From Owenia fusiformis (taxonomy: Eukaryota): a stretch of 64,000 nucleotides of DNA. Shown here piece by piece: positions 29,601 through 56,879 of this stretch. The stretch is from assembly GCA_903813345.2 (NCBI GenBank), contig CAIIXF020000001.1, positions 27,528,001 to 27,592,000 of the forward strand, written 5' to 3'. Below the pieces are notes generated by a model, which saw nothing but the letters and a program-made list of their open reading frames with translations, was not told the origin of the DNA and ran no database searches. The position numbers were made by a program, and so were the translations under genes. How positions within the stretch are numbered: position 1 is the first letter of the stretch; every line of letters begins with the position of its first letter.

Positions 29601-32600
29601 TTCTAGGTGGGTTTACTGTCGGCAGTATTCTTGTGGACCCCAATGTGTTGAGAGATCAAGTGATAAGCCAAAACATAAGCCTTACTCCAACTATTGTAAA
29701 TGATATACTCAATGCTTCACTGAATCCTATTGGGGTAAGATTCAAAAAGTTTTAATATCTAGGCATTTCTTGAGTATATTTAGGAATCTAAGTGTACATC
29801 ATTTTGGAGAAATCACTTTTTTGCTATCAAAATATCACAGTTTTGATTATTTGTCGAATTTTAAAACAAGGCCAAGACACCAACATTTCTCAAGGATTAA
29901 TGTTTACCCATAATTCATTTTCAGCTGTTGAACATTGCCACCAATATGTCCAACCCTCTAGGGTCTTTAAACAGGGAGCTAGTTTGTAACACATCGTGGC
30001 TGGAGAATATCCTGGTATTCTCCGACCCCACTACTCTGAACAATGTGTCACAGGCTCTATGCAACCTCACAATGGATGAGATGAACCAACTGCAGGCTGA
30101 TTTTGTGCAGGATTTTGATATCGTCAAAACTCTTACAGAGGTAGGATTTTTTGAATATTAAATGATAGCCACTTCTAAATCATCAATAAATTTTTTAAAT
30201 GAACACATGTTGTTAATGAAAGATTTTCAATATACATGTATGCTATTTGGGATACTCAAGAACAGTTTTCTTAAATATACAATATTTAGTCTTTAAATGT
30301 CTAATACATTAGTACAAATTAGTTCATGAGGATTAACCTATATTCAAAAAATAAGTTAAAGTAAATTTAAAGAAAAGTCAGAATTTTTGTATGATTTGGC
30401 AGGATATCTAGGAAATACCATTTAACTTCTTGAACCCAGGCTCTAAAATCGATTGAAACCAGAGAATTTTTCATTTTGGCAGCTTTTGACATTTTAATAC
30501 AAATATATACAACATGTGATGCTCATTTTAGTGTAATTTTTGTGTAGAGTGTATGAGCATTGTTCAAATAAGAGCAATTTTAGTGAAAAATTTTGTGAGC
30601 GATTATTTCGTCACTCTGGGTTTCAAGGTCATTTCTGAGGTGACAAGAAATCTTGTCATTCTGGGTAATCAAGAGGCTAATACCAAACTCATTTAACAAT
30701 GTTGAAAAATTTACATGACATGACTGTCATTACAGCAGGAGATCATAGACGTCATTTCCATTGTTCTCTGCATATTTCGCGTAGTAATCTACGTTGATTA
30801 GCCCTCGCGATTTTCGCATGAATGAACGTCATGGTTGATGTACCCATTTTTACATGACTGTATCTCCCTCGTATTATATCGGTTTTTCATAAAATAAATG
30901 GTTAGAAAGCTTATATCAAGTACTTTCAGATGGTTTTCTCATTTTTAATCATATTAAAGGTCAAGACTCCAAAGATAAAATCGCAACTGGTTATGTTTAT
31001 TGTAGGTGAGGAACCTGACATGTAACAATGCTGGGGAGTGTGTTAACTTTGATGAGGAAACATTTGAACTGTTCAGGAGATTCTCTCAGGATGTAAGTAA
31101 CTAAGCCTGATAATCATAATACGAGGGCATGGGCATAAATGTACATGGGCTTTAATAAATAGACACATCTGGACTCTGAAATTATAGTACCACATATGGT
31201 CAGTATGTTCTTTATGGTGCCATTTTTATTTAGGTACTCCATGGTACTATTTGAATATGGTACCAACTCTACCTAAAGTGAACTCCCTATCAGCCACTTA
31301 ACTATGCCATACATTGCCACTGTACAATAACCTAATAGTTTCTCCATATACTGATTACTTATACTCCATAAGTGACTTCAACTAGCTGGTTGATTATTTT
31401 CATTAACTGCCCTTCTTACATTCTTATATATTACCTTTCAGCAATTGAAGAATTATAAAACCTTGTATGTATGATAATTGATTGTAATTGAATAAATAAA
31501 TAGCTCTGTCTAATCAGATTCTATCAAATTCTTATTTCTCTAGGTATCCAACCAGGATAGTTTCAATGCGCTGTTTGTTGAGGGGGCTCGCCTGTTGGCA
31601 GACATTCAGATGTTACAGAACAGTAGTAATGCTGATGAGGAATTAAGCATGCTGGTCTGTGGGCGCAGGGAGGGTGCTCTGTTCCCAGCCTCCAGCCTGT
31701 TTGGGGCTTTAACGAATGGGGTGAGTCATTATGTTTCTTCACATGGGTTAAATTGTAAAATTCACTGAAAAATTTGGACAAATCTGTCGTGAGGTTTTTG
31801 GGGAACCAAGCCTTATCAACTTGTCATATCTCAAAAGCCCAAGTAGAGTACTACACAAAGCAGTAACTTGGTTGAGTGGAGTTATACATACTTAGTTTTG
31901 CACTTGTTTTTGGAAATGCAACAAGGTGAAAGTGAAACACTCAGCCCTTGATCCCAAAACTTGCAAAGGTCATTAAAACACCTGGTACATGTAATAAGCC
32001 CGGGCATGGAATGAAATTTTCTCAATGTTGCTTAAGTTTACTTATTTATTCAATGTCAAATCAATGTTATATTTTCAAAAACATAGTACAACACTATGGC
32101 AATTAAAATGGATAAAATTATTGAGTCATTATTGCTATTTAGATACAAAGCTCTTGTGGCCTGGAAGCCTTTATTACCAAGCCAAATCATTTTTGTCAGT
32201 TATGCACAAAACTGTGATTTGCCACCGGACTAGTCAGTCCATTTGGTGCCAAAATTTGGCACCGAAACGGCGTCGAAAATCGGATTGCATTTTGGGGGTG
32301 TACTATTTACATGTGTTTTTGTTAGAACGTATGAAGGCATTTCACAATTCAAATATTTGGAAAAAGAGAAAATTGGTTCTAAAATGTATCTGGAATATGT
32401 TTTTATTACCCATGTCAAAGATACAAATACACATTTCAAAGTTGTTATTGCAAACTAAAATCCATTAGATCTTCCTCCCTTCCTATAGTCAGAGATAGCA
32501 TGTATAGGATTATGTCCAGTGTTTGTGTTATGAATGGCTTGACTGATGGATCCTGCACTCTTTAACATATATACGTCATGTCCTTTGCTTAGCAACCCAT

Positions 32601-35600
32601 TTATGTATTTCTGGAAACACAGGCGTTTATGCATTATTAATGAGTAGTTTCTACACACCAATCAAATGGTAAGGTGCTGGTAGGGTTGGAGAGAGTGGAC
32701 ATCTATTTGCCTGTATCAGTTTCCACAAAAACATGGTCTCTCAATACAAGGCTTCAAAAATTAATTTAAAAAGAAGTGTGGTGTTTTAGTACAACACATG
32801 AACTTTCTTGAATTAAACATAATATGTATAATGGGTGACATATTTGCAAGCAACATTTTAACTTTAAGGTTTTCAACTAATGTACTTTAAAAGATTTAAA
32901 AGATAATTGTATTGTTACAGTATTAATAATTTAAGATGCAGGTCGGTATCAATTCAAAGATAGGATGCTTGTATTAGTATCTGTTGACTTTCTATTATAG
33001 AAAGGCCAATTTCTGTCCTTGAAAATCTATTTTGAATGAAAATCTAGGTACCTTCGGAAAACCGTGCTCTATCTCTATGTATGGTGGTGTTAATTGGTGA
33101 TGGATTCTGGGATAGTCTACAGCCTCCTTTACAGTCTTACCAAGCCATAGATTCTGTATAATGTTCTGAAATAGCAAGAATGTGTGCAATTGAGTGTTGT
33201 TATTACAGAAAAATACAGTTATTTATAATTGAGTGCAGTACTGTACATGCAATGATATTTCTCTAAAATATGTACTTTCATGATTATTCTCAAGACATAA
33301 TATATTATACAAATTGACAATCTGATGAAATTACCAAAATGGCGTAATTCAAGCATCTATTTACTTGAATGATTAATTGCTTACATATGAAATCGCTGAA
33401 TTAATCTTAGAACCACCTGATGCTCCTATGATCAATACCACCCTTCCCTCTCTGTCTGTAATGATAGTTGGAGCCATTGAGGACATTGGTCGTTTTCCTG
33501 GTTTGATGTAATTAGCAGGGGATGCTGGGATACCAAAGTGGTTTAACGTGTAAGGTGTGGCAAAGTCATCCATGTTGTTGTTGTACAAGATCCCCGTCTT
33601 TGTTCCCAGCACTTTTGAGCCATAACTAGAAGTACCAGTCAGATGTAATAAATAATTGTTCAGATTCCTGTTGAACATCTCAATCGTATTTAATGGTGTT
33701 TAAGGAGAAAATAACATTGTAAATCACATGGAAGAGGTCACTGAGAGGATCTCACCTGTTGGTTTGATGAGGATTGATTTTGATTTTAAATTTAGGGACC
33801 CTTATCCAAGTACACTATAGATCTGAATTCATAGAGCCTGAAACACCAAGGCTGACTTACAATGTATTTATGGTACTCGTAAGGGAAACTGCAATCCCAT
33901 CAGGCCCCAGTATTGAAAGGTGTGATGTCCCATGATTCTCAACATTATCATACTCCGCACCATAGTAGTTATAATCATGTGTTTCTTCATCTGTGATAAT
34001 GTCACGTATATGGGCTGCATAGTCTTTGGACATCATTAGTTTTACAATCTGAAATCACCAAAGTGCGGATCAGGTAGGGTAATGGTCACCAGTGTCTGAG
34101 GTATTGACCTTTCTCTAGTATTGTACCATATTCAGTTTCATTAGCAGCAGGCAACAGGCGATTTTCACCAGTTGTTTTTAGGGACTTTTTAACTTTTCCA
34201 TGTTAAATATATGATTTCCATTAATTTTTGCCTGTTGTTTTCATTTATTTAGCCTGTTGTGAGAAATTCTTGTGAAACCCCTTATATTGAACTATAGATA
34301 TAGTTTAATTATTAATATTTATTCTAAACAAGAAGTATTAAATCACAAAATTGATAACCTCATCTGTGTTAGTGAAACGCTCATCTCCCAAAAGAGATCG
34401 TTTGGCAAAAGCAAATTTGAATGCCTCTATTATTCTATGGTAAGTAAGTACTGACTTCTGGGTTGTTGCCAAACTGTCAGCACTGAAGTTATAACCTAAA
34501 ACAACATTTTTATTTTTATTTACATTAAACAATTACATATTTTTAATGTTGTCTAGAGCTTGAAATAGATAATCCATCCACTATATGTTCCTGCCAGACA
34601 TCATCTTCCTTTAAGGAAGAAACATAGTGGATGATACAGGGACCCCTATGTTTGTAGAATGTAAACTACTTGAAACCATATTCAGTCCCTCCGAATAAAT
34701 GAATTACATCTGTTGACAAAGTAATTAGTTTAAAGCCCCTATGTTTGAAAGTGCTAAAGTGCAGTTAACTGCATGTAGTTAAGTTCTGCACAAATTGTCA
34801 TTGTAATGCGAGTCAGTTTATGCAAGTAACTTACCATCTAAAATGTTCAGCACATACAATAGGGTTGCCCCACCAGAGGGAGGTGGAGGACACAATACGG
34901 TGTAGTTACCATTAGCTAGAGTGAGGTTCAGTGCTCTTTTAACCAGCACATTATAACTCCTTAGATCTTTTAAGATGATTCTTCCCCCTATTGAATAAAG
35001 AACATGATCATGTTTTTAATAATTTGAAAGTAGCAGTTTAATCTCCCTCTTACAAGTAAGTAGTACAGTATATGTATGTGATATGTCATAATTTGGCAAA
35101 TGTTGACAAAACAATATCTTCGATATGTTTGATAGATGTATGTGATCGTGATTTGGCGGTCTTATTGTTGCATCAGAATCAACCAATCATAATTAGATGA
35201 GCGTTGATATGACTATTGTAGTCGCAATTTTCTCCCCAAACTTCAGTTAGATACATGTAAATGTACATTATGTGACCGCCTTATTGTAATCTTATTATAG
35301 TCACACTACCCTCACCAAACCAAACCATAATTAGATGTGTGTCAATGTGACAACCTTATTATTACATAACCACACCATCATCATTCTACCTGCTTCTTGT
35401 ATCTCATTGACAACACTCCTTGCCAGGTCCCCATGGTAGAACTCCTGGGCTCCTTTCTCAGCGATCAGCTCCAATGTGTCTGCAAGATCAGGCATTCTCA
35501 TATAATCACCCTCCTGGTAGGGTTCATCTGTGTCAGGGTTGATAAATATCCTGAAATAATATTGACTGGAATTATTCTACTTTAATGAAATTGGATAGGG

Positions 35601-38600
35601 GCTTTAATATAATAATTTACAGGAAATCTATCAGACAGTATGATTTCCTGATATGTTTAGTTAACATACCTGAGGCCACATGGTAGCATTCATATACATG
35701 TGCACTGGTACTACACTAGATTACGCAGACGATTGTACATTTTAAGGTAAAAAGAAAAATCATACCTTCGAGGTTCAGACATTTTGTTACTGAAACAATC
35801 TGTTCCGGTAACCAGCGTAATCGAGTTGAGTACCAGCGTTCAATAAGGTAAGATATTATGTCTTGTTACTCATACTAATTACACACTAACTTCATCCCAG
35901 GGTTCAAAGACTCTCTTGTTTGACGTTCTAATCCAGCTCCCATTGCTTGACCAATCTTAAAGCCCTCTCTGCATATTTCTATAGTAGGCTGGAATAGTGC
36001 CTTCCATGGTAAGGTACCATATAGCTCATGCATCTTTTTGTAACAAATTGCTACTTGGGAAGGGACTCCAATAGCTAACCCACCTGGAAAAAGGGAGCAT
36101 TTTGAGGATTTTCAGCTCTTGGTTAAGATTAAATCCCTGATCAGTTATAACATTTTTAAGACCATGCTAAAATATATGTCTATCAGCTGTGTGCCGAAGG
36201 GTTGTATTTTATGATTACCACTGCACAAAACGAAGTGATAGCAAGGGAGAAATGAATGATTACGTTGATTCAAGGATGTCTCTGGATTACCGAAAATTGG
36301 TCATGAGTTGTGATAAATAAACACCAATTTCTATTTAGTTTGACTTCATCATTATAATTGTGAGAAACATACCTGTTAATGAAGCATCCATGTTTTGAAC
36401 AAACATGTGCGTATTTGAAATAGATGGAGCCTCTTCTCGACAGTCCAATGTCAAAACATCACGCTTTTTACTGAAATATTGCATCAAAGGAAAATCTGTT
36501 TACTTTTTTCATTTGCTTTTGCAATGATACATTTAAGCCTCAGTCACATGTGCTCTACGGCCATCGTACGGTTGTCATAGATTAAATGAGGCTGAGGCAT
36601 AAACCTTAACAATAAAAGGAACACCCACAATAATGGATGATCTTTGCTTGCTGCATATGACATTGATTTGATGATTGCATTTGGTTTATATATTTTTGAA
36701 CAACCCTAAATGAATTTATTGCTCACATTCATGCAGGATAAACTTAAACAAAGACTGCCCAAAACGTGGATAAAAAAGGACATGTCATGTGGCCATAACA
36801 TACCCCCCACAGGAAGAAATTATAACAGTTGCAAACTAATGATGAGAAGTCAGAATAGCGATGTAAATGAAATATGTAGGTCAATATGACTGAAAACACA
36901 GTCGTTATATTAGGCACTTACGTATCATAGATTGTTGCAAGAGAGCCACCTCCAATACCAGCACTCTGTGAATGTAGCACCCCAATGCACAACATAGCAG
37001 CTATAGCTGCATCTACTGCCGAGCCCCCATTGTACATCATATCTCTAGGATATTGAAAATTATTGATGATGTATTCACTGTTTCAGAATTTCTCCAGTTA
37101 AATCAGTATTAAATTCACACATTTTGTAGTGATTGTAGGAAAAGGGTGTAATTTGTAATGATTTAGGTATATTGATGTGTTAATATTGAAGATGATCTGA
37201 AATACTCACTTCCCTATCTTGGAGCATTTTGCATGATCTGTGGCTATTGCTGCGTTTTCATACCTCCCCATTGGAGAGTTAGAGGAAGGAGGTTCATGTA
37301 TCCCATCTCCTAGACCTCTCACATACACCTCATGTAGACTTCTACCACTTGTCTGTCCCTTAAAAAATTTACATTTCATTTATAACAGTATCCCAGTTGT
37401 CAATATTGCCATTATTCTTTCACATGTAAGTTTAAAACTACAAAATACTTAAAGTTCATATGTCATTTAGAATAACTATATAAACCAGGATTTTAGCATG
37501 TACTCATAAAGTTCATAATATACATTTAATTTGTCCTAATGTTCATAGTTCAACTATGAGAATATATATGAATACATGTAGAACCAGTCGCACCTTTCCC
37601 TCATCTTAAGCAAACTGAACAATGCTTATCTAAAAGAGCTACTTACCAAAATCAGAGTGCCTTGTTTTGGAATTTTTGCTTGATAAAAGTAAAGGCTTGC
37701 TAAAATCAAAATACACACCGTAAGAAACAAGTAAAGAAATTGTTTTCCTGACATTGTGAACTTGATAATCGATCAGTAATGTTCTATAATTTAATTTACT
37801 GTACTTATGATAAATGTGAAGGTGCAGGTGCTTTATGTGGGTATCGTTACGGGTATTTAGTTAATTAAACTCCAGATGAAGTCTTGAATCTGCTGTTTTA
37901 GCCATTTTATTTATTATTCTTAATTATAATTATAATATTGTGCAGATTTTCTCGACAACTGTAAGGTCTTGATTTAAATTAAGACAATTATATGGTCTGA
38001 TTTAAGGTACAATATCTACAGTTGGTTGGAAATTTGGTCAAATTTAATGTAGGTCAAACTAGATCAAATCTTATGTTTTCAGCATTTTGTCATTTTTGAT
38101 ATTTTTTGATTTTTTTTTGTCATTTTGAAGCTTGGAAATAGACAATTGGAGAGTGTGCCATTTTCGATTACTCTTACTGATTTTGAGATATCTGAATCTG
38201 AAATCAAAATTGAAATCTGACTTCCGGTTCGCGAACTATGACCTTTTGAAATATCGAAAAATTGATATTATTATATCCCCATGTTAAGTCAACAGCACTG
38301 ATGAAAATTAACGAAATGGGAAATACCAGATACAGATTGGATTCAAATGAATAAGGCAAATGCACTCAATAAGAATAGTATTCATCAAACCTTATGGTTC
38401 TGCAAATAAATTAATATGTAAAGTAAAGCCTGTCTTAGTGAACACCTTTCTCTAGTAGACACCTATCCTCCACACATACCCTAAATTACCTCTGTATAAA
38501 TTACCCTCTCTGTAATGAACACCTACCTACCTACTGTGAACATATTTTATGAGCTCCATAGGTGTTCACTATACACAGGTTTTACTGCATATTTCAATAC

Positions 38601-41600
38601 GAAACAGATTGGAGAAAATAAACTACAAAGTTAACAGACAGTTATGCAATGGATTCTTTCTGTGTTTAGACTTCTGGAGCTATGCCGGATTTCAGCTCTT
38701 ACCAACAGGGAGCATTTGAGAGACGTAGGAAGAAACGTGATACTGATGACAGTGACACCTATCAGAGAGACAACACAACCAGTAAGACTTAACTTTATTT
38801 CATAATTTGAAAGTTAAACATTCTTCAGTTAATTATTGATATAAAATATTAATTCAAATCAGTAATTTTTCCATTATTCTGCCATTTGCGCATTTAGTAT
38901 TCTACATGAATATATGATGTTTTTGATGAGATTAAAAATAGAGGCTAATAATGAAAACATATAATGAGCATTTATATTACAGCTGACTATTGCAATGACC
39001 TCGAGGCCAGTCTGAAAGATAATGCTGCCACCAGGGTGCTCTGGAACCAGGTTAAACCTCTCATCAGGGGTAAGGTGCCCTTCACACCAAACACTCCTGC
39101 CGTTCAGAAAATTGTCAAAATGGTAGGTTGTGTTGTTAAATAAAAGGATAAGAGTAACTCTTATTATCCCACCGAACAAAGTTTATAGGGATATATAGAA
39201 GCTGTCTTTCCATTTGTTTATCCTTTTGTTCGTTCATGTGTCTGGGCGATAACTCAGATACTGGTCGATGGATTTGATTTAAACTTTTTTTAGCCTTATG
39301 CCTTATGGGTGTAGGACTGTTGAAAATGACAAGGTATTTAATAAATATATTTTGTTCTGTGGGATTTGCTACTCTAGGAGTTGCTGTTTTCAAGTTAAAC
39401 CACATTTGAAAGAATATTAATTACACATATTTAATGAATACTCAAATTAATCACGTTGCCATGGTGTGTCATCAGCTCCACATACTATTGACTGACAATG
39501 CATTTCACAGTTAACTTTTATTGACCATTGATTGACCAATCAGAGTTTAGAAGTTCATTTGAAGTAATTGAAATATGTGTTATTCACATTTTAGGCGAAT
39601 GGTACATTCGAAGATATTGGTAGAATTCGCACTCTAGCAGAGGCCTGGTTGGAAAATGAACCAGCTATCTATAACTTCCTTGACACCAACCCTGCTGTCA
39701 GAGGTGCCTATGTAAGTTACCTTTCAAACAATCTTTAATAGATCAACTAAAAATGTGTAAACCTGTAGAATTTAATCTAAAATCTAAATTTAATAAAAGT
39801 TCTTAAGTTGTATGGTTGTATGATCGATAATTCATGATATTAGGATCATTTAAGTTCTAATGTCTCCTCTCAGGTCAAAGGTAATCCATTCCTCTCTTAC
39901 TTCAGATAATTATGAACACCAGGTGCCAAGCAGGGGAAACATGGGCTTGTGTATGGGCCAGGTTTCTCTACAATGGACCTAAGGCCCCTGGCAGCTATGA
40001 CTGGAGGGACAGTATTAAGTCTGTCACTGATATACTCAATATGACCAAATCTCTTGTTGAGGTAAGGCAGTTCAAATGACAGTTGTGTGATAATACAAGT
40101 TATGTTGACATTCAAATGTATCTCAGTGGAGTAGATTTGAGTAAAAAGATGCACAAATTGCCATTGTATAAAAATGACCAGATTGTGTAAAAATATGAGT
40201 TATGTTGAGATTCGAATATATCTCTGTCGAGTAGGTATGAGTATACAGATGCACAAAATCGCAATGTATGTTTGTTTTTTATTTCAGTGTTTTGAGGTTG
40301 AGAAATTTGTTGGCTACGACAATGAAACTGAACTGGTAAAAGCTAGCTGGAAACTTATATCAGAAAATAAATTCTGGGCAGGTATGTTTATTGTCTAATA
40401 CTCAGCTATAAAGCTCTCTTATTGGCCAGCTATAAAGCTCTCTTATTTGCCAGCTATAAAGCTCTCTCATTGGTCAGCTATAAAGCTCTCTCATTGGTCA
40501 GCTATATAAAACTCTCTCATTGGTCAGAATTAACGTGGTGATATGAAACTGAATTTCATGACTCTATACATTCCAATGTTTTAAACAACCCATTATCAAT
40601 GGAAATTAAAATATAAGAAACTAAATATATTTTGAATTGAAAAATCACATTTTATTAACAAAAAACATATTTGTTATACAAAAACAAATTGATAACAAGT
40701 CAGAGTCATTTTACTAAATTGCCCCACGTGTTGTTTAAGCTATTGAGTTTGATGCTGACCAGTTTGGTGATGATGGTGAAACTATTCCCCAACACCTTAA
40801 CTACAAGATTAGGATGGAGACCAAGCGAGTAGACAGCACAAAGTCACTCATGGACAGGTATGTGAATGACGTTATGAGGAACCACGCTCTTTCATTTAAA
40901 GTTAAACAGTAAATAAAATTTAATGTTTATTCTAGTATACTAGAATATACTATATATTTTGTTACAGTTTATGGAATAATACTTTACAAACCTTTTTGGT
41001 TTTTAATTTATCGTAGCAGCAACTTATGCATTTGGTTGACAGTATAATGTATGTTGAAATAAACTCCAAAATCTGTTTGAAACCAACTTTTTGTTTTCAA
41101 ATTCAATAAAATGACCTGAATATAATTTTACTTGAAATATGGAAAATTTGGAGGCTTCCTTCTTATCGTAAAATTCTGTCACTCGAATGGTAGTTGGGAT
41201 TTAATGATATTTTTCTCTAGATTTTGGAGACCTGGGCCTAGGAGGCGCCCAACATGGGACATGAAGTATGCAACATCTGGGTTTGTCTACCTACAAGATG
41301 TCATAGATCATGGGTTCAATAGACTGATGGACAATCACACAGAACGTGTGGGGGTCTATGTACAACAGTTCCCATATCCTTGTTATATATATGATACGTG
41401 AGTCAAGTGATGATATACTTGAGTTGCATGCTTTGCTTTAATGTCTTCCCCATACACTCAGCTTGGACCTTTTGCCTTATACATGTAGATACTGACAGGC
41501 ATGAAAAAGCATGAAAAGGAAATTTATATTATATACTAGCCTCGTATATGGAATGTTGTTATGATGTTAATAGTATAATTTAAATATGATTATTTATAGG

Positions 41601-44600
41601 TATATTATTTCTGCTAAAAGCCTTGAGGACCAGATGATCCAGATTAAAATAAGACTGTGTTTATGCATCTTTTTTTTTATTAATTTCATATTTTACTCGG
41701 CATTGTCCTAGCATCATGATTGTTGATTTAAATGCATATTTAGTCGGAATAACCGCATGAATCAGCAACTAAGATTTAATTTTGCTTATATCCTGAAAAC
41801 CTCGCTTTATTTCAATCCCCAGCTTTTGGAAACCTGGCTCTAGGAGAAGCCCCCTCACAGATATGAAATATGTCGCCTATGGCTTTGTATACCTGCAAGA
41901 CATGCTTGATCATGGCTATGCACAGGAGCTGAATAAAATGGAAGAAAAGGTTGGGGTGTATCTACAACAATTCCCATACCCTTGTTATATTTATGATACG
42001 TAAGTGGCTTCACCTGGACAGTCAATTTTGTTTTATTACAAATATGTGTTTTATGTATTTAAAATGTTAATGAAGCAGTACAGTTATGCATGCTATTAGT
42101 ATTCTGATGCATGTTGCATTTAATTTTGAATGTATTTTTGAAAAATAACATTTAACTGACATTAGATTTTAACAATTATGTATACAAAATTAATCGAATT
42201 CTATACTTAATAAATGGTATTTATATCTGATGTTAACTCTCTATACTAACAAATATTTCAAAAATAGGAATGCAAAACTGTATTTGTCTTGTAGTTTTAC
42301 CCGGGCAATATCAAGAAGTCTGCCACTATTCATGGTGCTGGCTTGGATCTACTCAGTGTCGATGATAGTGAAGGGGATAGTGTACGAGAAAGAGAAGAGG
42401 TTGAAGGAGGTGATGAAGATGATGGGATTAACCAATGGGATCCACTGGCTGGCATGGTTTATCACCTGCTTCATTATGATGTTCATCACTGTCATATTGC
42501 TTGTAGTCGTCCTATCAGTAAGTACTGTTTGACGCTATTTACCATATCTAGAGATGGGGCAGTGATTATCCCAGTTGAGTTTATCACTGTCATCATGCTT
42601 ATAGTTTTCCTTTGTTAATGAATGAGTAACTGTTTGCGACTATTTATTATGTGGCAGTGATTTTCCCAGCATTAGGGCAACTGGGAACTGCGCCTTGTTG
42701 AAATTCACATGTCACTCTGTTGAAAAATTTTTGTTTCCTGTCCGAGGATGAAATATTGTTGAAATATTTTTAAACAGAATCGATAAAAATTGTACTCTGA
42801 ACCTGTTGAGAAAAAATTGAGGTGATTTCTGATATGAGAGATGAAGCACAGTGTATCTCAATACCTCAATGTTACCCAGTCAATAATCAAATTTTGGAGG
42901 AAATCCTAATGAATATTTGACTAAAAGGTTTCATGTCAACAATATTTCCCTATTAAATATTTATTTGTCAACCTTTATTCCAGGTGGGTAAAGTTCTGGC
43001 CCATTCTGACCCAAGTGTGCTCCTCGTGTTCATGATCTGCTTCACCACAGCCACCATCATGCAGTGTTTCCTCATCAGCGTTCTCTTCAGCAGGGCCAAC
43101 TTGGCTGCTGCCTGTGGGGCTATCATATACTTTGTCCTTTACTTGCCCTACACTATCATGTTGAGGTGGGAGGAGGACCTCACTGTCACTGCAAAGAACT
43201 TAGCTGTAAGTTGATTCCCTAATTAACCTACACTATTTAACCATGAATATCTTAGAATAATATATATACTATGTGAATGTCTTGTTTATTAAACAACACT
43301 ATTTATGAGAATTAATCTTCTACATAAGCATTTGTCTATATATGAATGTTCATACCAGAATGCTCTAACCCAGTTGTGTTTTGGTGATGTAGGGTTTGTC
43401 ATCAACTGTGGCATTCAGCTGGGGAACCAACTATTTGTCTCGCTATGAGGAGCAGGGAGTAGGGGCCCAATGGAGCAACATTTGGAAGAGCCCTATCCCC
43501 AGTGACAACTACAACCTGGTTATGTGTATGTTAATGCTGTTGATAGATTCTGTGGTCTATATGGTACTTGCCTGGTACATAGAGGCAGTATTCCCAGGTA
43601 TGTGTGGAATATATGTTTATGTTATATATGTGTGGTATGACTGTAGGCCACTTAGCAAAGGACTAGACTCTCTTATAGTTTATGGACATTAAATGATGGA
43701 TTATGAACCCTGATTTAATTTTTACGAGATATAGATATATGACCATGCCCCATATTTAGGTATACAAGCATTTATATCATATATGGCTAAATGAGACCTA
43801 AATCAGATATAAGCAGACCCTTGATCCAAATGGTGAACTTGAATTTCATAGATAGAATGATAAACTTGTATGTTTCAGGTGAATTTGGTGTTCCAAAGCC
43901 TTTCTACTTTCCATTCACAAAGTCCTACTGGTGTGGCCATAGCTACAGGGCAGAGGATAGGGAAGCAAACAATACGTACAATGTCGACCATACGTTTGAG
44001 ATGAATGATAATCAAAGAGGTATTATGCATAGGATCTCACAAATTGAAACATATGTGAAGATCTTTTGTGTTCATTTTCATAAGTATTGAATCATTTCTT
44101 CAAAATAAAAATCATATTTAACTCCTCCAATGAAATAACCCTTTGACATGCATTTCATTTTTAGGGTCTGAAGAATTTGAAGCTGAGCCAAGAGATAAAA
44201 AACTGGGTGTTGCCATTAAGGGTTTGAAAAAGGTGTATAGTAGAGGCAAGAAGCTTGCAGTGAATCAACTCTCTATAAACTTCTATGAGGATCATATCAC
44301 ATCATTTCTGGGCCATAATGGAGCTGGGAAGACAACAACCATGTAAGAATACGTATGAATAATATAGAGGAGCAGTCATATAGCTAGCAACTTAGAGAAT
44401 ATTGAAACTTGAAACTGAATATTATGGATCTTGTTGATATTGCTTGTAATGTAAACCAAGGGTCACATGACTTATCGAAAGACCTCCATCCACCTCAACC
44501 CTCATTAATTTAACACATTTAAAGATATTTTAGTTGGATGAACACTTCTAAACATTGAAAATAAACAGCAATTAATGCTATGAACTATCACTTATGAATT

Positions 44601-47600
44601 ATTGATTATCCATACTGTTAAACTGCTTTTACTTGTAATGAAAACCGTCATGTTGAAAATTTTGCATTTGTTTCCAGGTCTATTCTGACTGGTCTGTTTC
44701 CACCAACAGAGGGCACTGCTTACATCTACGACAAGGATATTCGCTTAGACATGGATGAGATTCGACAAAGTCTTGGAATGTGCCCCCAATATAATGTCCT
44801 GTTTGACTGGTAATGTTTCATTATTAACCATTTCAGACTGAATTTTTAAAAACAACTAATTTTGATGTTCTCAATTTGTGGGTGTTTGATAATTTGACAA
44901 ATTCTCTTATATCTCTGGATTGATGGTCTTTTTGGCTTATTATGTATTGTCTGTTCAGAATGTTTTGCAGGTTTTCTATACATGAAAATCTAATAGGGTA
45001 TTGCATTGTAGGTAAATACCTTATTTCTAATCAGGCAACGTGATATAGTGGATTGTTAAGCTGATTGATTAATCTGTGATTTTTAGCCTGACTGTTGAGG
45101 AACATTTGTGGTTCTATGCCAGCCTGAAAGGTATGGATACAAAGACAATACAGCCTGAGCTGGAGAAGATGGTTGTAGATATAGGACTACCACATAAAGT
45201 CAAAGAAGAATCCAAGAATCTTTCAGGTTTGTATCTTAAGTGTATTGTCCCATTGATTTGAGATATATAAAGATGATGTTTCAAGCAGATTCCAATTTGA
45301 GAGTCTATTTATTTTATTTTTTATTCAGACATCTTGTTCTATTTCATCTTTAGAATTTCAACTTCTGAATATATTGTTTCTTCATAAAAATATGTTTCAC
45401 TTGAGCCAATATTGCAAATAGAAAATAAGAATGTCAAATTGATATTTCCAAACTTGTATAATTTTACTGTTTCCTGTCTTGAAATGTTCCCGATTTACAG
45501 ATGAAAGTTAATATGTTGTATTTGTCTAGGGGGTATGAAAAGGAAACTGTCTGTTGGTATAGCATTTGTTGGTGGCTCTAAGACCGTGATTCTGGATGAG
45601 CCAACTGCAGGGGTGGACCCATATGCCAGGAGACAGATTTGGGAGCTGCTGCTCAAGTATAGGAAAGGTACAATTTAGATCATTCAGTTGTCTTATCCTA
45701 TTATTGCAGAGCTGAAATTATGTATGATTAAATTCATTTTTAAAATTGCGGCAGATGTAGTTCATCCTAGTTTTTTTGACATTCATGTAGAATGTTGATA
45801 ATTGCATGTAGTGATGTTTTGTTCTAGGGCGAACAATTTTGTTGTCAACACATTTCATGGATGAAGCAGATATCTTGGGGGACAGGATAGCGATTATATC
45901 CCAGGGAAAGCTGAAATGCTGTGGATCCAGTTTGTTTCTTAAGGTAAGAAACTGGGCGTGTAAGGCAAATATCTATATCTGCAATGTTGATGTGGAAAAG
46001 GCAGTCAGCTCCATAGCTCAGTGGTAGAACACTCATCCGGCAAGGGAGGGGTGGTGTGTTCAATCCCAACTAGGGTGAACTGTCTTTTTCACATCAGCCC
46101 TCAGCGCAGAATTTCATTCTGTGTTTTCAAAACATTTCATCAACAAATTAAAATCCAAGATTCCAAAAAGACTTCCAAAAAATCAATATCAAATAATGAT
46201 CATATTCTGAACACATGTTACATTTACTTCACTTATAGAGTCGTTATGGGAGTGGCTACTATCTGACAATGGTGAAAGGTGTGCAGCCAGCATACAATAC
46301 TGGACCCGAGACTGAAAAGAAACCTGATACAGATGAAGCAATAAGACCTGGCAGTTCTCTCAGTGCAGCAACCATCAAAGAAATACATGTAAGTTAAACT
46401 TGATGTATTGCTTTCATAGAGAAAATGCTCTTAACTTTTGAAAAGTTCTGTTCAGTTAAGTTAGCATTTTAAGAAGATTGATCATAAGAGACTGAAATAT
46501 ACATATTATTTGATATGAATGAGTTTAAGAGCATTTTTTATGGTACAGAAGTAGTTTACTTGTTTGCATTTACATTAATTCATCAGTATATTTTTATAAT
46601 TCTGTAGGCTGAGCTAGATGGGGCATCTGAGGTTGATGAGGGAGTGGCAGATGTTGATAAGTCTGATACAGCATCCAGTAGAGACACCCCTCCTGCTAGT
46701 GAAACCAATGAAGGTATGTAACAGACAGGATCATCAATTCATTAAGGTCTGGTTTAGAATCTATGGAAATTGGAGACCAAATTTGAAAGGTCTCATATTA
46801 TGATATTTGTTATAAATCTTTGTATTGCAGTTGAGGCTTCCTATCTGAATATACAAGTATGATATAATCTCAATGTTTCCACATTTTCAAGATTTTCTAA
46901 GTCCAATAGATGTTAATACCTGAAATTACTCTTAGCAAAACTGTACCATAATGTACAGGGTGTTAAAAAAAACGCAACCCAAAGAAATCGCTATATCTTG
47001 GAAAATACTAGTCCAATTGTGTTCATTTTTTCAGGAAGGAAAGAAGAGACTGTGTATGTATAGCTCATGTTATTAGTTAGTTGTAAAACATGATGCCTTG
47101 GACAAATGCTCAAAAGACATTAGTATTGGAAAGATACGAAAAACGCAGTCAGAGACTACTGCCACAGCAATAAAACCAAATAACTTTCTTACCATAGTGT
47201 TTTAGCTATTCAAATTTGGCACAAATCATCTTCATTCAATGTATGATAAATCTGTAGAGTGAAATCAAAATCACTCCAGGGACTTTACAGTTTTGGTTGA
47301 AATGCTTTCAAAACCCAGTCAAACACCCTGGTTCAGTCAGACTTAAGAAGGCATTTTGACCATGACTGTAAAGTCCCTGGAGTGATTTTAATGAAACTCC
47401 CCCAATTCACTACAAATTATATGAAGATAATTTGTGGTGAATCTGAAGTGCCAAAACACCATGGTTAGAAAGTTATTAGGGTTTATTGCTCTGGCAGTCA
47501 CCTCTGGTTGCGTTTTTCGTATCTTTCCAATACTAATGTCTTTTGAGAAGGTGTCCAAGGCATTATGTTTTACAACTAACTAACAGCAGGAGCTATACAC

Positions 47601-50600
47601 ACATAGTCTCTTCTTTCTTTCCTGAAAAAATGAACACAATTGGATAAGTATTTTCCAAGATATAGCGTTTTCTTTGGGTTGCGTTTTTTTTTGAACACCC
47701 TGTGAGTACTAATTCTTACATTTCAGTGCTGACTCCATGTGATGATGACAAAGTAACAGAGTTTGTAGAACGCTATATTCCTGATGCTGTACTGGTAGAG
47801 AATATCGGCACAGAGCTCTGCTACCAGCTCTCCAGTGATGGCGCCAGTGACGGCTCCTTTGAGAGACTTTTCAGGGGCTTAGATAAGAACATGGCTGACC
47901 TTGGGGTGTCCACTTATGGTGTATCAGATACTACACTAGAGGAGGTATGTACCCATAAGGCTATTTTTTTTTGTTACCACAATGGGCTACTTTTTTATTG
48001 TATCTCTATTAAATTAATACCTGACAGAAATACATCCAAGAACTGAAACCACGTGAAAATCACTGAATTAACTAATGAGAACATTCTCAAAATATTTTAT
48101 CGATTATGAAATGTGTTTCTTTGTCATCTCTGAGTTCATAAGATGGCTGCCTTTTTGATTATTAAGTAAACGATCAATAAGATATTATTGCAATTCAAGG
48201 TGTTCTTGAAAGTGGCTGATGAATCTGAGAATGGAGAGCTGACAGATGAGACAAGACGTAGTACACTGGACATTATGACAGAAGGTAGATATTCTCATCA
48301 TTCTACAAAATAGGTTTATGATTTTAGATCATTGATATGATATAGTCAAAGTCACTCACCATTTCTGCTCTTCTTGAAATGTTGGCAACAATTTTAAGAA
48401 TATCATGTGAACTGCACAGTATATATCTGATAGTAATTTACAGAGGGTATACCTGTCTATTCAACCTATCAATTACATAATAATTAGTTGCCCCAAACTG
48501 AAATATTTTATTATCTGCTGGTCAATAATTTGTCCCTTTTCAACATTCAGTGAAAAACTTTCAATTCACAGGTATCATAGATGGACATTTATTACATAAC
48601 ATTTGAAGGGATGAACTTAATTTCTGCATGAGTATATTTGTACTCACAGTACATCATCTATTAAATGCCTATATTTCCCCAGGTAGAAGGAATGCCATAG
48701 CAAGATTTAGGAACTACAGGCAGATAGGACATGTTAACAAAGCATTTGTGACAGATGATCACATGACTGTAGATGATGGTGATTTACATAATAGTCCCAC
48801 ATTTAACCCCTAAACACCACAGCATATATATTACTTAAGTTGTACACATTATAAGCATTAAGCCCTCTTATATGGAAATCCCCAAAATGTCTAAAACTGA
48901 CCTGATCTGTCGGTTATTTTTATTCAAGCTTTTGTGATGGACTGTACACAACCCTGTCATGGGCGTAGCGCTATTTTTATGAGTAGTACGCCACAAAGGG
49001 AATACAATGTGAGCAAGCGTTCATGGGATCTGGGGTTGTCCCCCCAGAATATTTTGAAGTGTATTTGCAACCATCTGGTATGCATGGTACTGAGCGCTAC
49101 GCCCATATATAGTATATTTTAGGTAAATTGTAAGCTGTGACCCCCTTTCACTAGTTCCATATAAGCAGCACACCACCAACCAATCCCATCTCACTTGTAC
49201 TTTAGGAATTGCAGATCACCTTATTTCATTCTTTATTTTCCCCTGCACATTTATTCAGCTACATAGGTATTGCTTATTTTTCTCCCAATAGGTGGCAGGT
49301 ATCCAAGACCAATCTCCCGACTGAGCTTTCGAAGCAAATGCCGGAGCTTCTTCGGCAAGAATGGCAAGATTGATTCAAAAGGCTTGCTGAGCAGTAACCC
49401 ATACTTAGATGATTCAGGTCTGTTACTTAGTGTACTCTCTCATTTTTTAAATATTCAATGATTCTCAATATAATTTTGGATCCTTAAGCCATTTTCAAAA
49501 TGTATGCTATGAAATGTAAGCCTATTTTGAGTTTGATTGTTGAATTATTGTTGAATTGAACCACCTCTAGAAGCCAATTGAACTACAGTTAGGTACAAAA
49601 ACTACTATTTCAATGTGTGGTAGGGGGTAAGACATTGCTTTTCCCTTGCACAATATTACAATCTTTAGTTAAGATTTTAGTGTAAACATGTTTTGTTGCA
49701 TATTTATAGTTGGAAATATAAGTTAGATATTCTACATTTAAGAATTTCTACATTTTATATCCTAAATTGGGAATTCTCCCAATATAGATGTTAATACCAT
49801 CATAATTTTCTCATGCTAGGTTAATTTTTTACCATTGTATCATCAATCAAACAAAAAATATTTTTTGTATTGAGATTTATTCATTTTTCTGTTGTTATTA
49901 TTTCAGTGTCTATTGGAGGTCAGTCTGTTGACAGAGGTACACTTTTTATTTACTTTTAGATTTTTTATTTCTAATTTTTCATTATCTTTTATAATTCATC
50001 ATATTTATTATTTCTTTAGAAACCTCATTCTGTTGTTAGAGATAAAAGCACTTAAAAACATTGACATTTAGTTCAAGATCAATCAGCTCCTCTGTTATTT
50101 TTGCAAGGAATCGTGGACTCTTCTATTATTTTGCAGCCTCAACATCAGTTGATATCGGCTCTGAAGTTGAAAACTGCAATGGTACAGGTTCATACAAGAT
50201 CTCAGGATTCCCCTTGATTCGTAGACAGTTTGTTGCCCTGTTCATCAAACGTTTCCATCATGTTAGAAAGAGCAGGAAGGGTTTTGTTAGTGAGGTGAGG
50301 AAAAACTGGTAGTTGATTGGATAAAAAGATGAAGGATTAATGAATAAATTCAAAATATAAATCTTAGTATCCTTACTAAACTGGACGAGAGAGAATAGTT
50401 TGTATTTGTAATTCCAATGGTTAGCGAATTTAAATGAACCCATTTATCCTTTCTTGAGAATTCTGCCAGTTCAACCAATCTGAGAATGTAACACCATGGT
50501 TACTTGATTAGTGGGTCATCCAGTCCACCTATATGCAAAATTATGTCTCCACCAGAAGTGTTGACGTATTGTTATCGTTTCCATCTTATTTGTGGATGGT

Positions 50601-53600
50601 GTTCGGCGGTCAGAGTTGGCAGTCACTGTTTGGCAGGTGGCATCTGGTGTCTGTTATAAATGGCAGGTCGATGAAGTTTTGCATGTTAAAGCCTTTTATA
50701 TTAATAAATTGAACAGAATGCCGATTTCCACCCTCCTTACATGACCTTCTGATTCTATTCCAGATTCTCCTCCCTGCAGGGTTTGTTTGTCTAGCTTTGT
50801 TAATTGCTAGTATTATTCCACCGTATGAACAAGACCCACCCCTTGAGCTTCATCCCTGGCAGTACAGCAACGTGAAAGGCAAACAGGACCAACAACTCTT
50901 TACATTCTACAGGTACTGAAGTTATCTTAATTTGGGTTTATTAACCAATCATTAATCAGGTAGTAGTAGGTTCTCTTAATTTATTCACCAATTGGTTCAT
51001 TCACCAGTTGATGTTGTGTATTATAGGGATGTAAGCAACATATTTTCCAGAGAACTTGAACGTGAACAAAATGATGTTTATTATTTCAGCAATGATGCCC
51101 CAGATAACAAGTATGCTGCAAGGTTTGAAGAGTTAATGCATACTGGTCCTGGACCTGGCACAAGATGTATGAACTCATCCATCTATGAAATAAGGTACTT
51201 AAATCTAATTAATCTAATCTAATTACATGTAAAACTTAACATGCATGCATTAGCCATAAAGAGCTACTTGTATTGTTCTGTTGAATTAAACCAGTTGACA
51301 GTTTTCTTGTAAGTTGAAAGAGGAATCAATTAATATGAATAATTTTTTGAAATTAAATTATATTGATCTTTTCAGTGGTTTCCCATGTCAGAACCAGTAT
51401 GCAAATAGCAAATGGTCTCCTATCCCAGAATACAATGCAAATATGACGTCTGACTGTGACTGCAGTACAGGACGCCAGGAATGTCCAGCTGGAGCAGAGG
51501 GACCTGAACCACCATATAAAACTTTGCAGACAACAGACTTCCTGTATAATATGACAATGAGAAACATTTCTGATTGGATAAGGAAAACAAGATGGGATGA
51601 TCAGTATTTTCAGAAGAGGTAAAAACTTGATGTTTTGGATAAGAAGAGCAAATTAATACTTTTGCCGAAACTTTCTTAAGAAATGTCTTTTTACTGAATT
51701 AAAAATGCATACCATATCATGGTACTCTTTTTAATATACCTGTTCATGTACCTAATTTTCGCCTTTACATTAAAAATGATACAATAAAGATTTTACATGA
51801 TAGGAGTGTCTTGAAAGCATCATTATATATCACTGAATTCAAACGTTATACTCAGGTATGGTGGGTTTTCATTTGGTGAGGTCAACCAGGATGTCAATGT
51901 GAATGTGACAGGAGTGAATAATCTACTACAGAGGATCTACAAGGAGTTCAATGACAGGGACATCCCAGGGTTACAGTTCAATGTCTCACAGAACATCACA
52001 GAGGACTTTGAAAATCTACTTAATGATTTGTATACGAGGAATAATGCAAAGGTAGGTCTTAGTAGTGCTCTTCGCTTTAATAACATGTACATTGAAGGAT
52101 GAGTGAAACATTCTGTTCAATATTACATGTATCAGGCATAATGTACTATATACTAATGTACTATTTTTCACTTGATCCCTTCCATATTGAAGCATATAGA
52201 ATTGGATGGAATGAAGAATGCAAAAGTTCACAGTTGTGTCTATAATTTTGATAAGCCTTTTTCTTATATCTATACCAGGTGTGGTTCAACAACAAAGGTT
52301 GGGCATCTATGCCTATCTACATGAACGTAATGAACAACATGATCCTACGTGCCAACCTCCCTGCCAGTGAAGACCCCCATAACTATGGTATCACTACATA
52401 CAGCTTCCCTGTCAATCTCACCAAGTCACAACTTGATGATAAATTATTGTAAGTACTGCTAGTACATTTGTACTTGATTCAAGTTATTCAACCAATACAT
52501 GGCCTTCCAATTGATGTTCATTGGCATTTGCATCGCCATAATTGTCCACTACACCCTATTCAGATGCAGTCTATTTTTCTAGTTTTCTTCTTATTTAATT
52601 TTCCCCTATAGTCATTACATGCATGTATTTTATGGGTTTCATTAGTATTTTTAATAATAGAATAACAATAGGTAAAATATTGAAAATTGTAATTTTAGTA
52701 TGAAAACAGTTGCAAAATTCGCATGTCGACTTCAATCCTAATTTAATAATTTTGTCCATTTTCTTTCCAGGGACTCATCTGTGATAGATGTCTTAATTGC
52801 GATCTGTGTAATCTTCGCGCTGTCCTTCATTCCTGCCAGTTTTGTCATCTACCTCATTGAAGAGAGGACGTCTAACTCGAAACACCTCCAGTTCGTCAGT
52901 GGAGTGAATCCTGTTATCTATTGGTTATCAAACTTTGCCTGGGATATGGTGAGTCCATCTCTTGTTTAATCGTATTTATTTCTAATTAGGGTGCAAAATG
53001 TTAGACATATTTAGGGTGCAACATATTTTTAGTGTCAGCTAGAAACATTACGATACTGCAACAAGTCATAGGGAAACACACCTCAGGGTTCCAATAGATA
53101 CCATTATTCCATAATACTACTGTTTTCACAGGGAAATATGAAGAAATAAAAATCGTATTGAATCGTATTACATGAAAAAATCGTATTGTCCTCGGGAAAA
53201 ATCGTATTGGAGCGTATTACATGTAAAAATCGTATTGTCCCTGGGAAAAAATCGTATTGGAGCATATTAACCTATTCTTAGTTTCCCGGTTATTTTTTCC
53301 CCGTTATTTACATTATCCAAATGTAACATTTTAGACGGATATTTTATGGAATAAATAGGTTATTTCTGGTCGGGATTGAATATGGGTTTTATTCCTCGGA
53401 AAATATGACCTTGGTCAATATCATATTACCCTTCGGTCAATATCATATTGTCCCTTGGAATAAAACCCTGGTTTTAATATTCAATCCTTCCCAGTAAATA
53501 ACCTGTATTTCTTGTTTAATATTAAATATATATATTTCAGTTGAACTATGCCATCCCTGCCATTCTTGTGATATTGATATTCCTGGCATTTAACCAGAAG

Positions 53601-56565: not shown

Positions 56566-56879
56566 AATTATTATTATTATATCTTGGTTACCGCCATATT
56601 TGGCGAGCAATAGCTCATTGGTATATTCTGTACTTTACATATTTTACATTCGAAGACAGAGCCAGAAACCCCTCCTTGGAGGAGCCCTGTGTTCTTTTGT
56701 GTGCACAGGTACACAGACATACAGGTACACACCACAGCCTTTTATACGAGTCGCGAACCACTCAGTCAAACACCCAGAATTACATGACGCACAAACAAAC
56801 TTGTCTGAACCGGGAATCGAACCCGGAGCCAAGCGATATTGGTAACCTTGACTCTGCCACTGAGCCATAGCGGGTGGAC
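56566..56879 (-). mobile_element. tRNA-derived SINE, central region resembling the Meta/MESC domain
   Basis: Minus strand: A box tggctcagtgg, B box ggttcgattcc, core taaaaggctgtggtgtgtac...ctgtgcacacaaaagaac, (AAT)n tail. It is absent from the mirror arm at about 58065-58090. Confidence 0.8.

What the first reader, a model, noticed from the sequence alone, without database searches (positions are those of the whole stretch)
41221..41999. Tandemly duplicated, probably mutually exclusive exon pair in the lipid-entry segment of an ABCA transporter
Seen: two 177-nt exons, both phase 2-2, both with canonical AG/GT and no stops, separated by a 425-nt intron. Their translations match at 38 of 60 positions by hand count. 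Identical residues are often encoded by different synonymous codons and the flanking introns are unrelated, which suggests an old duplication with both copies kept under selection. Established: this segment corresponds to human ABCA1 [26 protein letters not shown]...QQMPYPCY, the end of ECD1 before TM2, which contains the Tangier positions R587, W590 and Q597 and lines lipid entry to the ECD tunnel. The differences cluster there (PRRRPTW...YATSG vs SRRSPLT...YVAYG) and in the next helix (FNRLMDNHT vs YAQELNKME). Inference: one gene makes two transporters with different lipid or acceptor specificity by exon choice. I know of no described case in ABCA genes but cannot search.
Basis: partly seen in the sequence, partly recalled or inferred. 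Interest (0 to 1): 0.85.

Follow-up and report, generated by a model that had tools for sequence, protein, structure and literature searches.

The report
Swappable duplicated exon in ABCA transporter
An invertebrate relative of the cholesterol and phospholipid exporter ABCA1 carries two diverged copies of one exon and splices in one or the other, so the loop where lipid is thought to enter the transporter comes in two versions.

Summary
Exons 41221-41397 (A) and 41823-41999 (B) are both 177 nt, open, AG/GT-flanked and in the same phase. They match at 37 of 58 whole codons (38 of 60 with the split codons) and have unrelated introns.

They lie in a collinear ABCA1-like gene and align to human ABCA1 residues 573-630.

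RNA-derived contigs bear on the splicing:
- In 3 of 3 spliced runs, from three studies, the long transcript joins 40857>41823 and 41999>42295, so it has exon B and skips A.
- In one run a 197-nt contig holds exon A followed directly by the first 12 nt of the downstream exon, so it skips B.
- Exon A's 5' junction was not seen directly.

Pairwise dN/dS is 0.11 with synonymous sites near saturation. A and B are sister sequences among 160 homologous segments. None of 77 loci from other animals has a second copy.

Best reading: a lineage-specific, old, tandem-duplication-derived alternative exon pair. I found this device described for ABCC transporters but not for ABCA. It swaps most of the lipid "gateway" loop and the next helix. 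Different lipid specificity is untested.

The parts
26692..55345 (+). ABCA1-like full-transporter gene. This is the part visible in the window; NBD2 was not found in it.
   Evidence: tblastn of three named ABCA1-like proteins (P0044, P0035, P0015) gives collinear hits from 26692 to 55345. Pfam finds ABC2_membrane_3 at 42296-42517 and 52742-52966, and ABC_tran pieces at 44134-44343 and 45505-45675.
40740..40857 (+). Constitutive upstream exon. It ends with the two bases AG of a split codon and encodes ...[11 protein letters not shown].
   Evidence: Spliced contigs of X2, X3 and X9 have joints 40379>40738 (cut +2) and 40854>41820 (cut +3). Translation.
41221..41397 (+). Alternative exon A, 177 nt. 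It encodes (R)[58 protein letters not shown] and carries an N-H-T sequon.
   Evidence: X3 record 14 covers 41219-41397 and runs on with TTTTACCCGGGC, which equals 42295-42306.
41398..41822 (+). Intron between the two copies, 425 nt, GTGAGT...CAG.
   Evidence: It is skipped together with exon A in the main contigs.
41823..41999 (+). Alternative exon B, 177 nt. It encodes (S)[58 protein letters not shown]. This is the form in the long transcript contigs.
   Evidence: Joints 40857>41823 and 41999>42295 appear in X2, X3 and X9.
42295..42517 (+). Constitutive downstream exon (start of TM2, [20 protein letters not shown]...).
   Evidence: Joint 41999>42295 GT..AG. Pfam ABC2_membrane_3, E = 4.8e-10. 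The 3' end at 42517 (GTAAGT follows) and the next exon from 42984 come.

Best explanation
A single exon of an ABCA1-like lipid transporter gene was duplicated in tandem in this animal's lineage long ago. Both copies have been kept as coding sequence, and the pre-mRNA uses one or the other.

Exon B gives the form that assembles as the long transcript in the sampled RNA. Exon A gives a second form in which A is spliced straight to the downstream exon.

The two proteins are identical except for 59-60 residues at the end of the first extracellular domain. These cover the last two thirds of the loop that in human ABCA1 is called the gateway (residues 564-592), plus the helix and strand that lead back to TM2.

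Shown:
- the duplication
- the intact frames and splice sites
- purifying selection over the A-B path
- B-only transcripts
- an A-to-downstream junction that skips B

Inferred:
- that exon A is also joined to the upstream exon
- that the two exons are not normally used together
- that both proteins are made
- that the swap changes lipid handling, net loop charge (+5 against +3) or glycosylation (N-H-T only in A)
For: Anatomy: equal length, phase and canonical sites. 64% identity, E = 2.5e-25, only two copies.

Selection:
- pN is 0.22 against pS 0.72, giving dN/dS 0.11.
- Among the listed variants in independent contigs, 3 of 4 in exon A and 2 of 2 in exon B are synonymous, and neither exon has an indel. 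The flanking intron carries a 26-nt deletion and insertions.

Transcripts:
- Contigs of 4538, 1955 and 2051 nt in X2, X3 and X9, from three studies, join 40857>41823 and 41999>42295 across exon A.
- X3 record 14 (197 nt) is exon A followed by 12 letters identical to 42295-42306.
- That contig's alignment starts at 41219. Its last 6 letters do not lie on the intron.

Gene identity and position:
- Both exons hit the same residues of three ABCA1-like proteins.
- Both align to ABCA1 573-630, ABCA7 483-540 and ABCA4 588-645.

Function of the region: passages of PMC9381790 define the ABCA1 gateway as 564-592. They report that D581K/E584K/D585K lowers efflux by 80-85% and F583K/W590E lowers cholesterol efflux by 95%. 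The A/B differences fall at the equivalents of 575, 578, 581, 583, 584, 589, 590 and 591.
Against: - Exon A's spliced form rests on one short contig in 1 of the 4 runs laid.
- Its 5' junction is inferred from 6 unlaid letters.
- In X2 and X3, exon A is also covered by unspliced contigs that run into both introns (41020-41640). Some exon A signal is therefore pre-mRNA.
- 177 nt is a multiple of 3 and the intron between the copies is 425 nt. Neither frame nor steric hindrance enforces exclusivity.
- I found no unusual intron pairing.
- No relative close enough to test conservation of the pair was reachable. None of 77 distant metagenome loci has a second copy.
- The acidic residues that the ABCA1 model relies on (D575, D581, E584) are not conserved in either exon. 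The gateway mechanism may therefore not transfer.
- The A/B differences lie mostly at positions that vary across the family. Mean top-residue frequency is 0.41 at differing positions against 0.70 at shared ones.
Confidence: 0.75

Rival explanations
1. Exon A is a little-used or decaying duplicate. It is spliced in occasionally as noise, and only the exon B protein matters.
For: All three long transcript contigs carry B. The only spliced exon A contig is short. Unspliced cover surrounds exon A in X2 and X3.
Against: - Exon A is open, without indels, and has good splice sites although synonymous sites between the copies are near saturation (pS 0.72, dN/dS 0.11).
- Exon A is no more aberrant than B. 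At the 21 differing positions, A has the commoner family residue at 10, B at 10, and they are equal at 1.
- A has the shorter end branch in both trees (0.18 against 0.43; 0.25 against 0.55).
- 3 of 4 listed variants in exon A are synonymous.
- Only four runs of unknown tissue were laid.
Confidence: 0.17
2. Both exons are normally included together. The protein would then carry a tandem repeat of this 59-residue segment.
For: Double inclusion would keep the reading frame, since 177 = 3 x 59.
Against: Contigs in three runs join the upstream exon to B across A. One contig joins A to the downstream exon across B. Among the best 150 listed of the 218 family proteins that matched the profile, none has two adjacent copies of the segment.
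Confidence: 0.04
3. The second copy is an assembly artefact, such as a collapsed haplotype or paralogue.
For: No independent contig spans from exon A to exon B. 41641-41714 is uncovered.
Against: - The copies are only 68% identical in DNA, far beyond allelic difference.
- Each is found with its own intron flanks in contigs of other runs: X1 records 3 and 4, X2 record 10.
- Each is spliced to the same neighbouring exon sequence.
Confidence: 0.02

Closest known systems
Tandem duplicated exon substitution events (homologous mutually exclusive exons), including those of ABCC transporters (ABCC9 and its Drosophila and C. elegans orthologues)
   Same: Adjacent homologous exons of equal length and phase. 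One or the other is spliced in, giving isoforms that differ only in one homologous segment of a membrane protein. Passages of PMC9741552 name ABCC9 and its orthologues and describe enrichment in membrane transport proteins.
   Different: - The subfamily is ABCA, not ABCC.
- The swapped part is extracellular (end of ECD1), not a transmembrane or nucleotide-binding part.
- The pair appears lineage-specific. That paper calls most human events ancient.
- Strict exclusivity and the way it is enforced are not shown here.
Human ABCA1 gateway loop (residues 564-592) and the following ECD1 helix (PDB 7tbw, 5xjy)
   Same: The alternative exons align without gaps to ABCA1 573-630. The conserved frame W574, P576, G577, R579, P582, D585, Y588, G592, F593, Y595, L596, Q597, D598 and QQ.PYPCY is kept in both copies. 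D571 is kept in the upstream exon.
   Different: - ABCA1 has one exon version.
- Its loop segment 573-592 is acidic (net -2). Here it is basic: +5 with exon A and +3 with exon B, counting the junction residue.
- D575, D581, E584 and W590 are replaced in both copies.
Invertebrate ABCA1-like proteins (Argopecten irradians XP_069128746.1, Nucella lapillus KAL8576510.1, Nymphon striatum KAG1680699.1)
   Same: Collinear with the window's gene over about 2000 residues at 40-89% identity per exon.
   Different: Their protein models hold a single copy of the segment, and it is at most 56% identical to exon A in the tblastn rows. Their genomes could not be inspected for a second exon.

Membership tests
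Tandem-duplication-derived mutually exclusive exons | Two neighbouring exons are homologous to each other | tested here: met
   37 of 58 residues identical, E = 2.5e-25, start-to-start spacing 602 nt.
Tandem-duplication-derived mutually exclusive exons | Same length and intron phase, each with its own functional splice sites | tested here: met
   177 nt each, phase 2-2, AG...GTGAGT and AG...GTAAGT. Both 3' junctions and B's 5' junction are seen in RNA contigs.
Tandem-duplication-derived mutually exclusive exons | Transcripts with the first exon only and transcripts with the second exon only both exist | tested here: inconclusive
   B-only: contigs in 3 runs join across A. A-only: one contig joins A to the downstream exon across B. 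Its join to the upstream exon is inferred, not read.
Tandem-duplication-derived mutually exclusive exons | The two exons are not spliced together | not testable with these tools
   Contigs show presence, not absence.
Tandem-duplication-derived mutually exclusive exons | Both copies maintained by selection | tested here: met
   dN/dS is 0.11 with pS 0.72. 5 of 6 listed exon variants are synonymous. This is measured over the whole A-B path, so recent loss of constraint on one copy is not excluded.
Tandem-duplication-derived mutually exclusive exons | Pair conserved in related species | not testable with these tools
   No close relative's genome was reachable. In 77 distant metagenome loci, 38 of them with at least 1 kb on both sides, no second full copy was found. 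A and B are sisters in the trees.
ABCA subfamily full transporter (ABCA1/4/7-like) | Large extracellular domain between TM1 and TM2, followed by an ABC-2-type membrane domain | tested here: met
   Collinear tblastn hits to ABCA1-like proteins cover residues 1 to about 830 before TM2. ABC2_membrane_3 is found at 42296-42517. The segment matches the ECD1 end of ABCA1, ABCA7 and ABCA4 structures.
ABCA subfamily full transporter (ABCA1/4/7-like) | Nucleotide-binding domain with Walker A, signature and Walker B | tested here: met
   GHNGAGKTT at 44134-44346 and GGMKRKLS...[10 protein letters not shown] at 45505-45678. ABC_tran pieces score below the Pfam whole-protein cut-off because they are single exons.
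ABCA subfamily full transporter (ABCA1/4/7-like) | Second half with TMD2 and NBD2 | tested here: inconclusive
   TMD2 is present (52742-52966, ABC2_membrane_3, E = 1.7e-14). No NBD2 exon was found between 55345 and 64000, so it presumably lies beyond the window.
ABCA1-type gateway loop (Segrest et al. 2022 model) | Charged loop aligned to residues 564-592, with the acidic relay D571, D575, E584, D585 and the aromatic pair F583/W590 | tested here: not met
   Only the D571 and D585 equivalents are kept. 575 is R/K, 581 is R/S, 584 is W/T, 583 is T/L and 590 is T/A in exons A/B. The model's residues are from passages. The segment is homologous, but the proposed salt-bridge relay is not conserved.

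The most novel reading that the evidence does not exclude
This animal makes two ABCA1-like lipid exporters from one gene by swapping the gateway loop and the helix behind it. One version has a basic loop with a tryptophan at the 584-equivalent position and an N-glycosylation sequon. The other has the family's usual Leu and Tyr at positions 11 and 19 and no sequon. The choice would set which lipid or acceptor is served in which tissue. This would be the first homologous-exon substitution described in the ABCA subfamily. It would also be a natural domain-swap experiment on where ABCA substrate selectivity resides.
Probability: 0.3. Interest if true: 0.65.

Novelty: new member of a known kind. 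Interest (0 to 1): 0.5.

Why it matters
Alternative use of tandem-duplicated exons is rare. It is among the few kinds of alternative splicing with consistent evidence of function (abstracts and passages of PMC9741552 and PMC8373072).

Here the event falls on the part of an ABCA1-like exporter where, in the human protein, Tangier disease mutations (R587W, W590S/L) and engineered mutations abolish lipid efflux.

If both isoforms are made, evolution has supplied a matched pair of transporters that differ only in this segment. Such a pair could be used to test whether the gateway loop sets lipid or acceptor specificity in ABCA transporters.

It also adds the ABCA subfamily to the transporters that have evolved this device.

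Tried and rejected
Sequencing runs: no RNA holder listed. All 13 rows are 'RNA?' guesses.

Laid contigs:
- No contig in the 4 runs laid shows 41397>41823 (both exons) or 40857>42295 (neither). This is absence in contigs only.
- X1 gave no spliced joint and covers introns, so it behaves like DNA or unspliced RNA.
- X9 has no cover on exon A.
- Contig depths (18.8 for the exon A contig, 633.5 for the B transcript in X3) are not a measure of level, so I give no isoform ratio.

Searches for relatives:
- The window's own genome is not held.
- Word-index protein searches gave 1, 1 and 4 hits, none from a close relative.
- The first metagenome scan found 0 relatives among 121 pattern matches.
- The second found 77 loci. 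6 of 77 have a second hit. The two hits cover complementary or partly overlapping parts of the exon, which I read as one exon split by an intron, not a duplicate.

Competing RNA structures:
- Inverted repeats in 40858-42294 are short and AT-rich (12 pairs).
- Best duplex energies between the three introns are weaker than the shuffle means (-85.8 against -95.6; -62.8 against -74.3; -76.5 against -84.1). 189, 196 and 188 of 200 shuffles reached the observed value. This is a crude whole-intron test.

'Exon A is the more ancestral copy' was suggested by branch lengths. The per-position count does not bear it out: 10 against 10, with 1 equal.

Earlier findings of this scan: nothing for this genome or sequence. 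One unrelated arrestin case turned up by words.

Literature:
- Six searches gave listings dominated by generic splicing-event tables.
- Judged from titles and abstract starts, none describes homologous alternative exons in an ABCA gene.
- 'ABCA' occurs 0 times in the main texts of PMC9741552 and PMC8373072.
- Their supplementary event lists could not be seen and may hold ABCA genes.
Full report
**Observation**

Exon A is 41221-41397 and exon B is 41823-41999. Each is 177 nt, preceded by AG and followed by GT (GTGAGT, GTAAGT), and open in one frame.

The upstream exon ends at 40857 with two bases (AG) of a codon. Each alternative exon supplies the third base and ends with two bases (AC). The downstream exon, from 42295, completes that codon. 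The phase is therefore 2-2.

The whole codons give 37 identical residues of 58. The 5' split codon reads Arg with A and Ser with B, and the 3' split codon reads Thr with both.

DNA identity is 120 of 177, and 15 of the 37 shared residues use different codons. The 100 nt on either side are 32% and 21% identical, which is unrelated. tblastn of either exon on the window finds the other at E = 2.5e-25 and nothing else below E = 0.5. Among the + strand open stretches of the gene I found no other duplicated exon.

**Gene**

Three named ABCA1-like proteins were used: dog whelk P0044, bay scallop P0035 and sea spider P0015 (names). They give collinear tblastn hits on the + strand from 26692 to 55345. 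A and B hit the same residues of each protein.

Pfam finds ABC2_membrane_3 in the exon after the pair and again at 52742-52966. It finds ABC_tran pieces at the Walker A and signature/Walker B exons. NBD2 was not found in the window.

A profile of A and B aligns without gaps to human ABCA1 573-630, ABCA7 483-540 and ABCA4 588-645. The numbering agrees with the residues named in PMC9381790.

**RNA evidence**

The run search listed 13 runs of one coded organism and one run of a second organism. None is on record as RNA. I laid four runs on 40100-43250.

- X2, X3 and X9 belong to three studies. Each holds a long contig (4538, 1955 and 2051 nt) with introns removed at GT..AG. These contigs are therefore RNA-derived.
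- All three join 40857>41823 and 41999>42295. This is exon B with exon A skipped.
- In X3 a separate 197-nt contig covers 41219-41397 and continues with TTTTACCCGGGC. That is the first 12 nt of the downstream exon, so exon A is spliced to it with B skipped.
- At that contig's other end, 6 letters do not lie on the intron. The alignment begins at the AG that is shared by the intron end and the upstream exon end. This fits a join to 40857 but does not prove it.
- X1 gave only unspliced pieces, but it confirms both exons with their own flanks in independent data.
- X2 and X3 also hold unspliced contigs around exon A (41020-41640).
- Contigs cannot show that a junction is absent, and their depths are no measure of level.

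**Selection and age**

Nei-Gojobori counts give pN 0.22 and pS 0.72, so dN/dS is about 0.11 with synonymous sites near saturation. The duplication is old and the A-B path has been under purifying selection.

The variants listed in the contigs are synonymous in 3 of 4 cases in exon A (the fourth is N33S) and in 2 of 2 cases in exon B. The introns beside exon A carry a 26-nt deletion and single-base insertions.

**Other species**

- A profile search of 1.84 billion representatives gave 218 proteins at E <= 0.001. Among the 58-residue segments compared, the closest to exon A shares 36 of 58 residues. Among the best 150 listed, none holds two adjacent copies.
- In trees of 128 and 162 segments (58 columns, poorly resolved overall), A and B are each other's sister, with SH-aLRT 92 and 95.
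- Of 77 animal-derived loci found in metagenome contigs, 38 have at least 1 kb on both sides of the exon and none has a second full copy. In 6 of 77 a second hit covers the other part of the exon, which I read as a split by an intron.
- These animals are all distant. No close relative could be examined, and the own genome is not held.

**What differs**

The 21 differing positions are 3, 6, 9, 11-12, 17-19, 27-28, 32-40, 42 and 47. Eight of them lie in the part aligned to the ABCA1 gateway, at equivalents of 575, 578, 581, 583, 584, 589, 590 and 591. Nine form one block in the following helix, equivalent to 604-612.

PMC9381790 (passages) defines the gateway as residues 564-592. It places the Tangier mutations D571G, R587W and W590S/L in it. 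It reports that D581K/E584K/D585K and F583K/W590E cut lipid efflux by 80-95% without loss of surface expression. The exon choice therefore replaces positions that matter in the human protein.

There are limits to this comparison:
- Both copies replace the acidic residues of the human model. The loop here is basic: +5 with A and +3 with B, against -2 in ABCA1 573-592.
- Differing positions are on average variable across the family. Top-residue frequency is 0.41 there against 0.70 at shared positions.
- Neither copy is closer to the family consensus (10 against 10, with 1 equal).

Exon B keeps the common Leu11 and Tyr19. Exon A has Thr11, Trp12 and Ser19, and alone carries an N-x-T sequon (N-H-T at positions 38-40).

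**How exclusivity could work**

Because 177 is a multiple of 3, including both exons or neither keeps the frame. Nonsense-mediated decay therefore cannot enforce the choice. The 425-nt intron is too long for steric hindrance, and both exons have ordinary U2-type sites.

Short AT-rich inverted repeats link the regions upstream of each exon with the downstream intron. Duplex energies between the introns are no better than shuffles. The mechanism is therefore open.

**Comparison with the literature**

Homologous exon substitution is a known device. PMC9741552 (passages) names ABCC9 and its fly and worm orthologues and stresses enrichment in membrane transport proteins. 'ABCA' does not occur in the main text of that paper or of PMC8373072.

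Six searches listed no paper that, by title or abstract start, describes such a pair in an ABCA gene. Supplementary event tables could not be read.

**Verdict**

This is a real tandem-duplicated alternative exon pair, with transcript support, in the lipid-entry region of an ABCA1-like transporter. It is a new member of a known kind. The functional claim of different specificity remains a hypothesis.

Noticed in passing
window 33373-37379, minus strand: A gamma-glutamyltranspeptidase gene lies on the opposite strand inside a large intron of the ABCA gene (about 31900-38900). The ORF at 33373-33696 matches Pfam G_glu_transpept at E = 5.7e-28. Further GGT-like ORFs run up to about 37379.
   Followed up: partly
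window 55848-58578: A large palindromic structure sits in the region after the last ABCA exon seen. It has inverted arms of 405 nt at 95% complementarity (55848-56252 and 58174-58578) and four further inner arm pairs. GC rises to 0.42. The ORFs have no Pfam match, so it looks like an inverted duplication of a mobile element.
   Followed up: partly
window 41020-41640: Unspliced RNA-run contigs cover exon A together with about 200 nt of intron on each side in X2 and X3. The other intron stretches of the laid region have no cover in these runs. This may reflect slow or regulated removal of the introns around exon A.
   Followed up: no
window 42985-42986: All three spliced contigs read CA where the window has TG, at the second and third bases of the exon that starts at 42984. 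The aligner therefore printed a TA..TG joint. The real intron is 42518-42983, GT..AG.
   Followed up: yes
window 41109-41134: A 26-nt deletion polymorphism lies in the intron just upstream of exon A, in contigs of X1 and X2. It comes with several nearby substitutions, and the population appears highly polymorphic at about 2-3%.
   Followed up: no
window 40371-40541: An intronic open stretch reads as a short tandem repeat (SYKALL... repeated), probably a minisatellite. A second local repeat around 40080-40395 showed up in the ORF self-comparison.
   Followed up: no
L049, L050, L052, L053, L054, L063: In these 6 of 77 metagenome loci from other animals, the homologous exon appears to be split by an intron of about 180-350 nt. 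The exon structure of this segment therefore varies among animals.
   Followed up: partly
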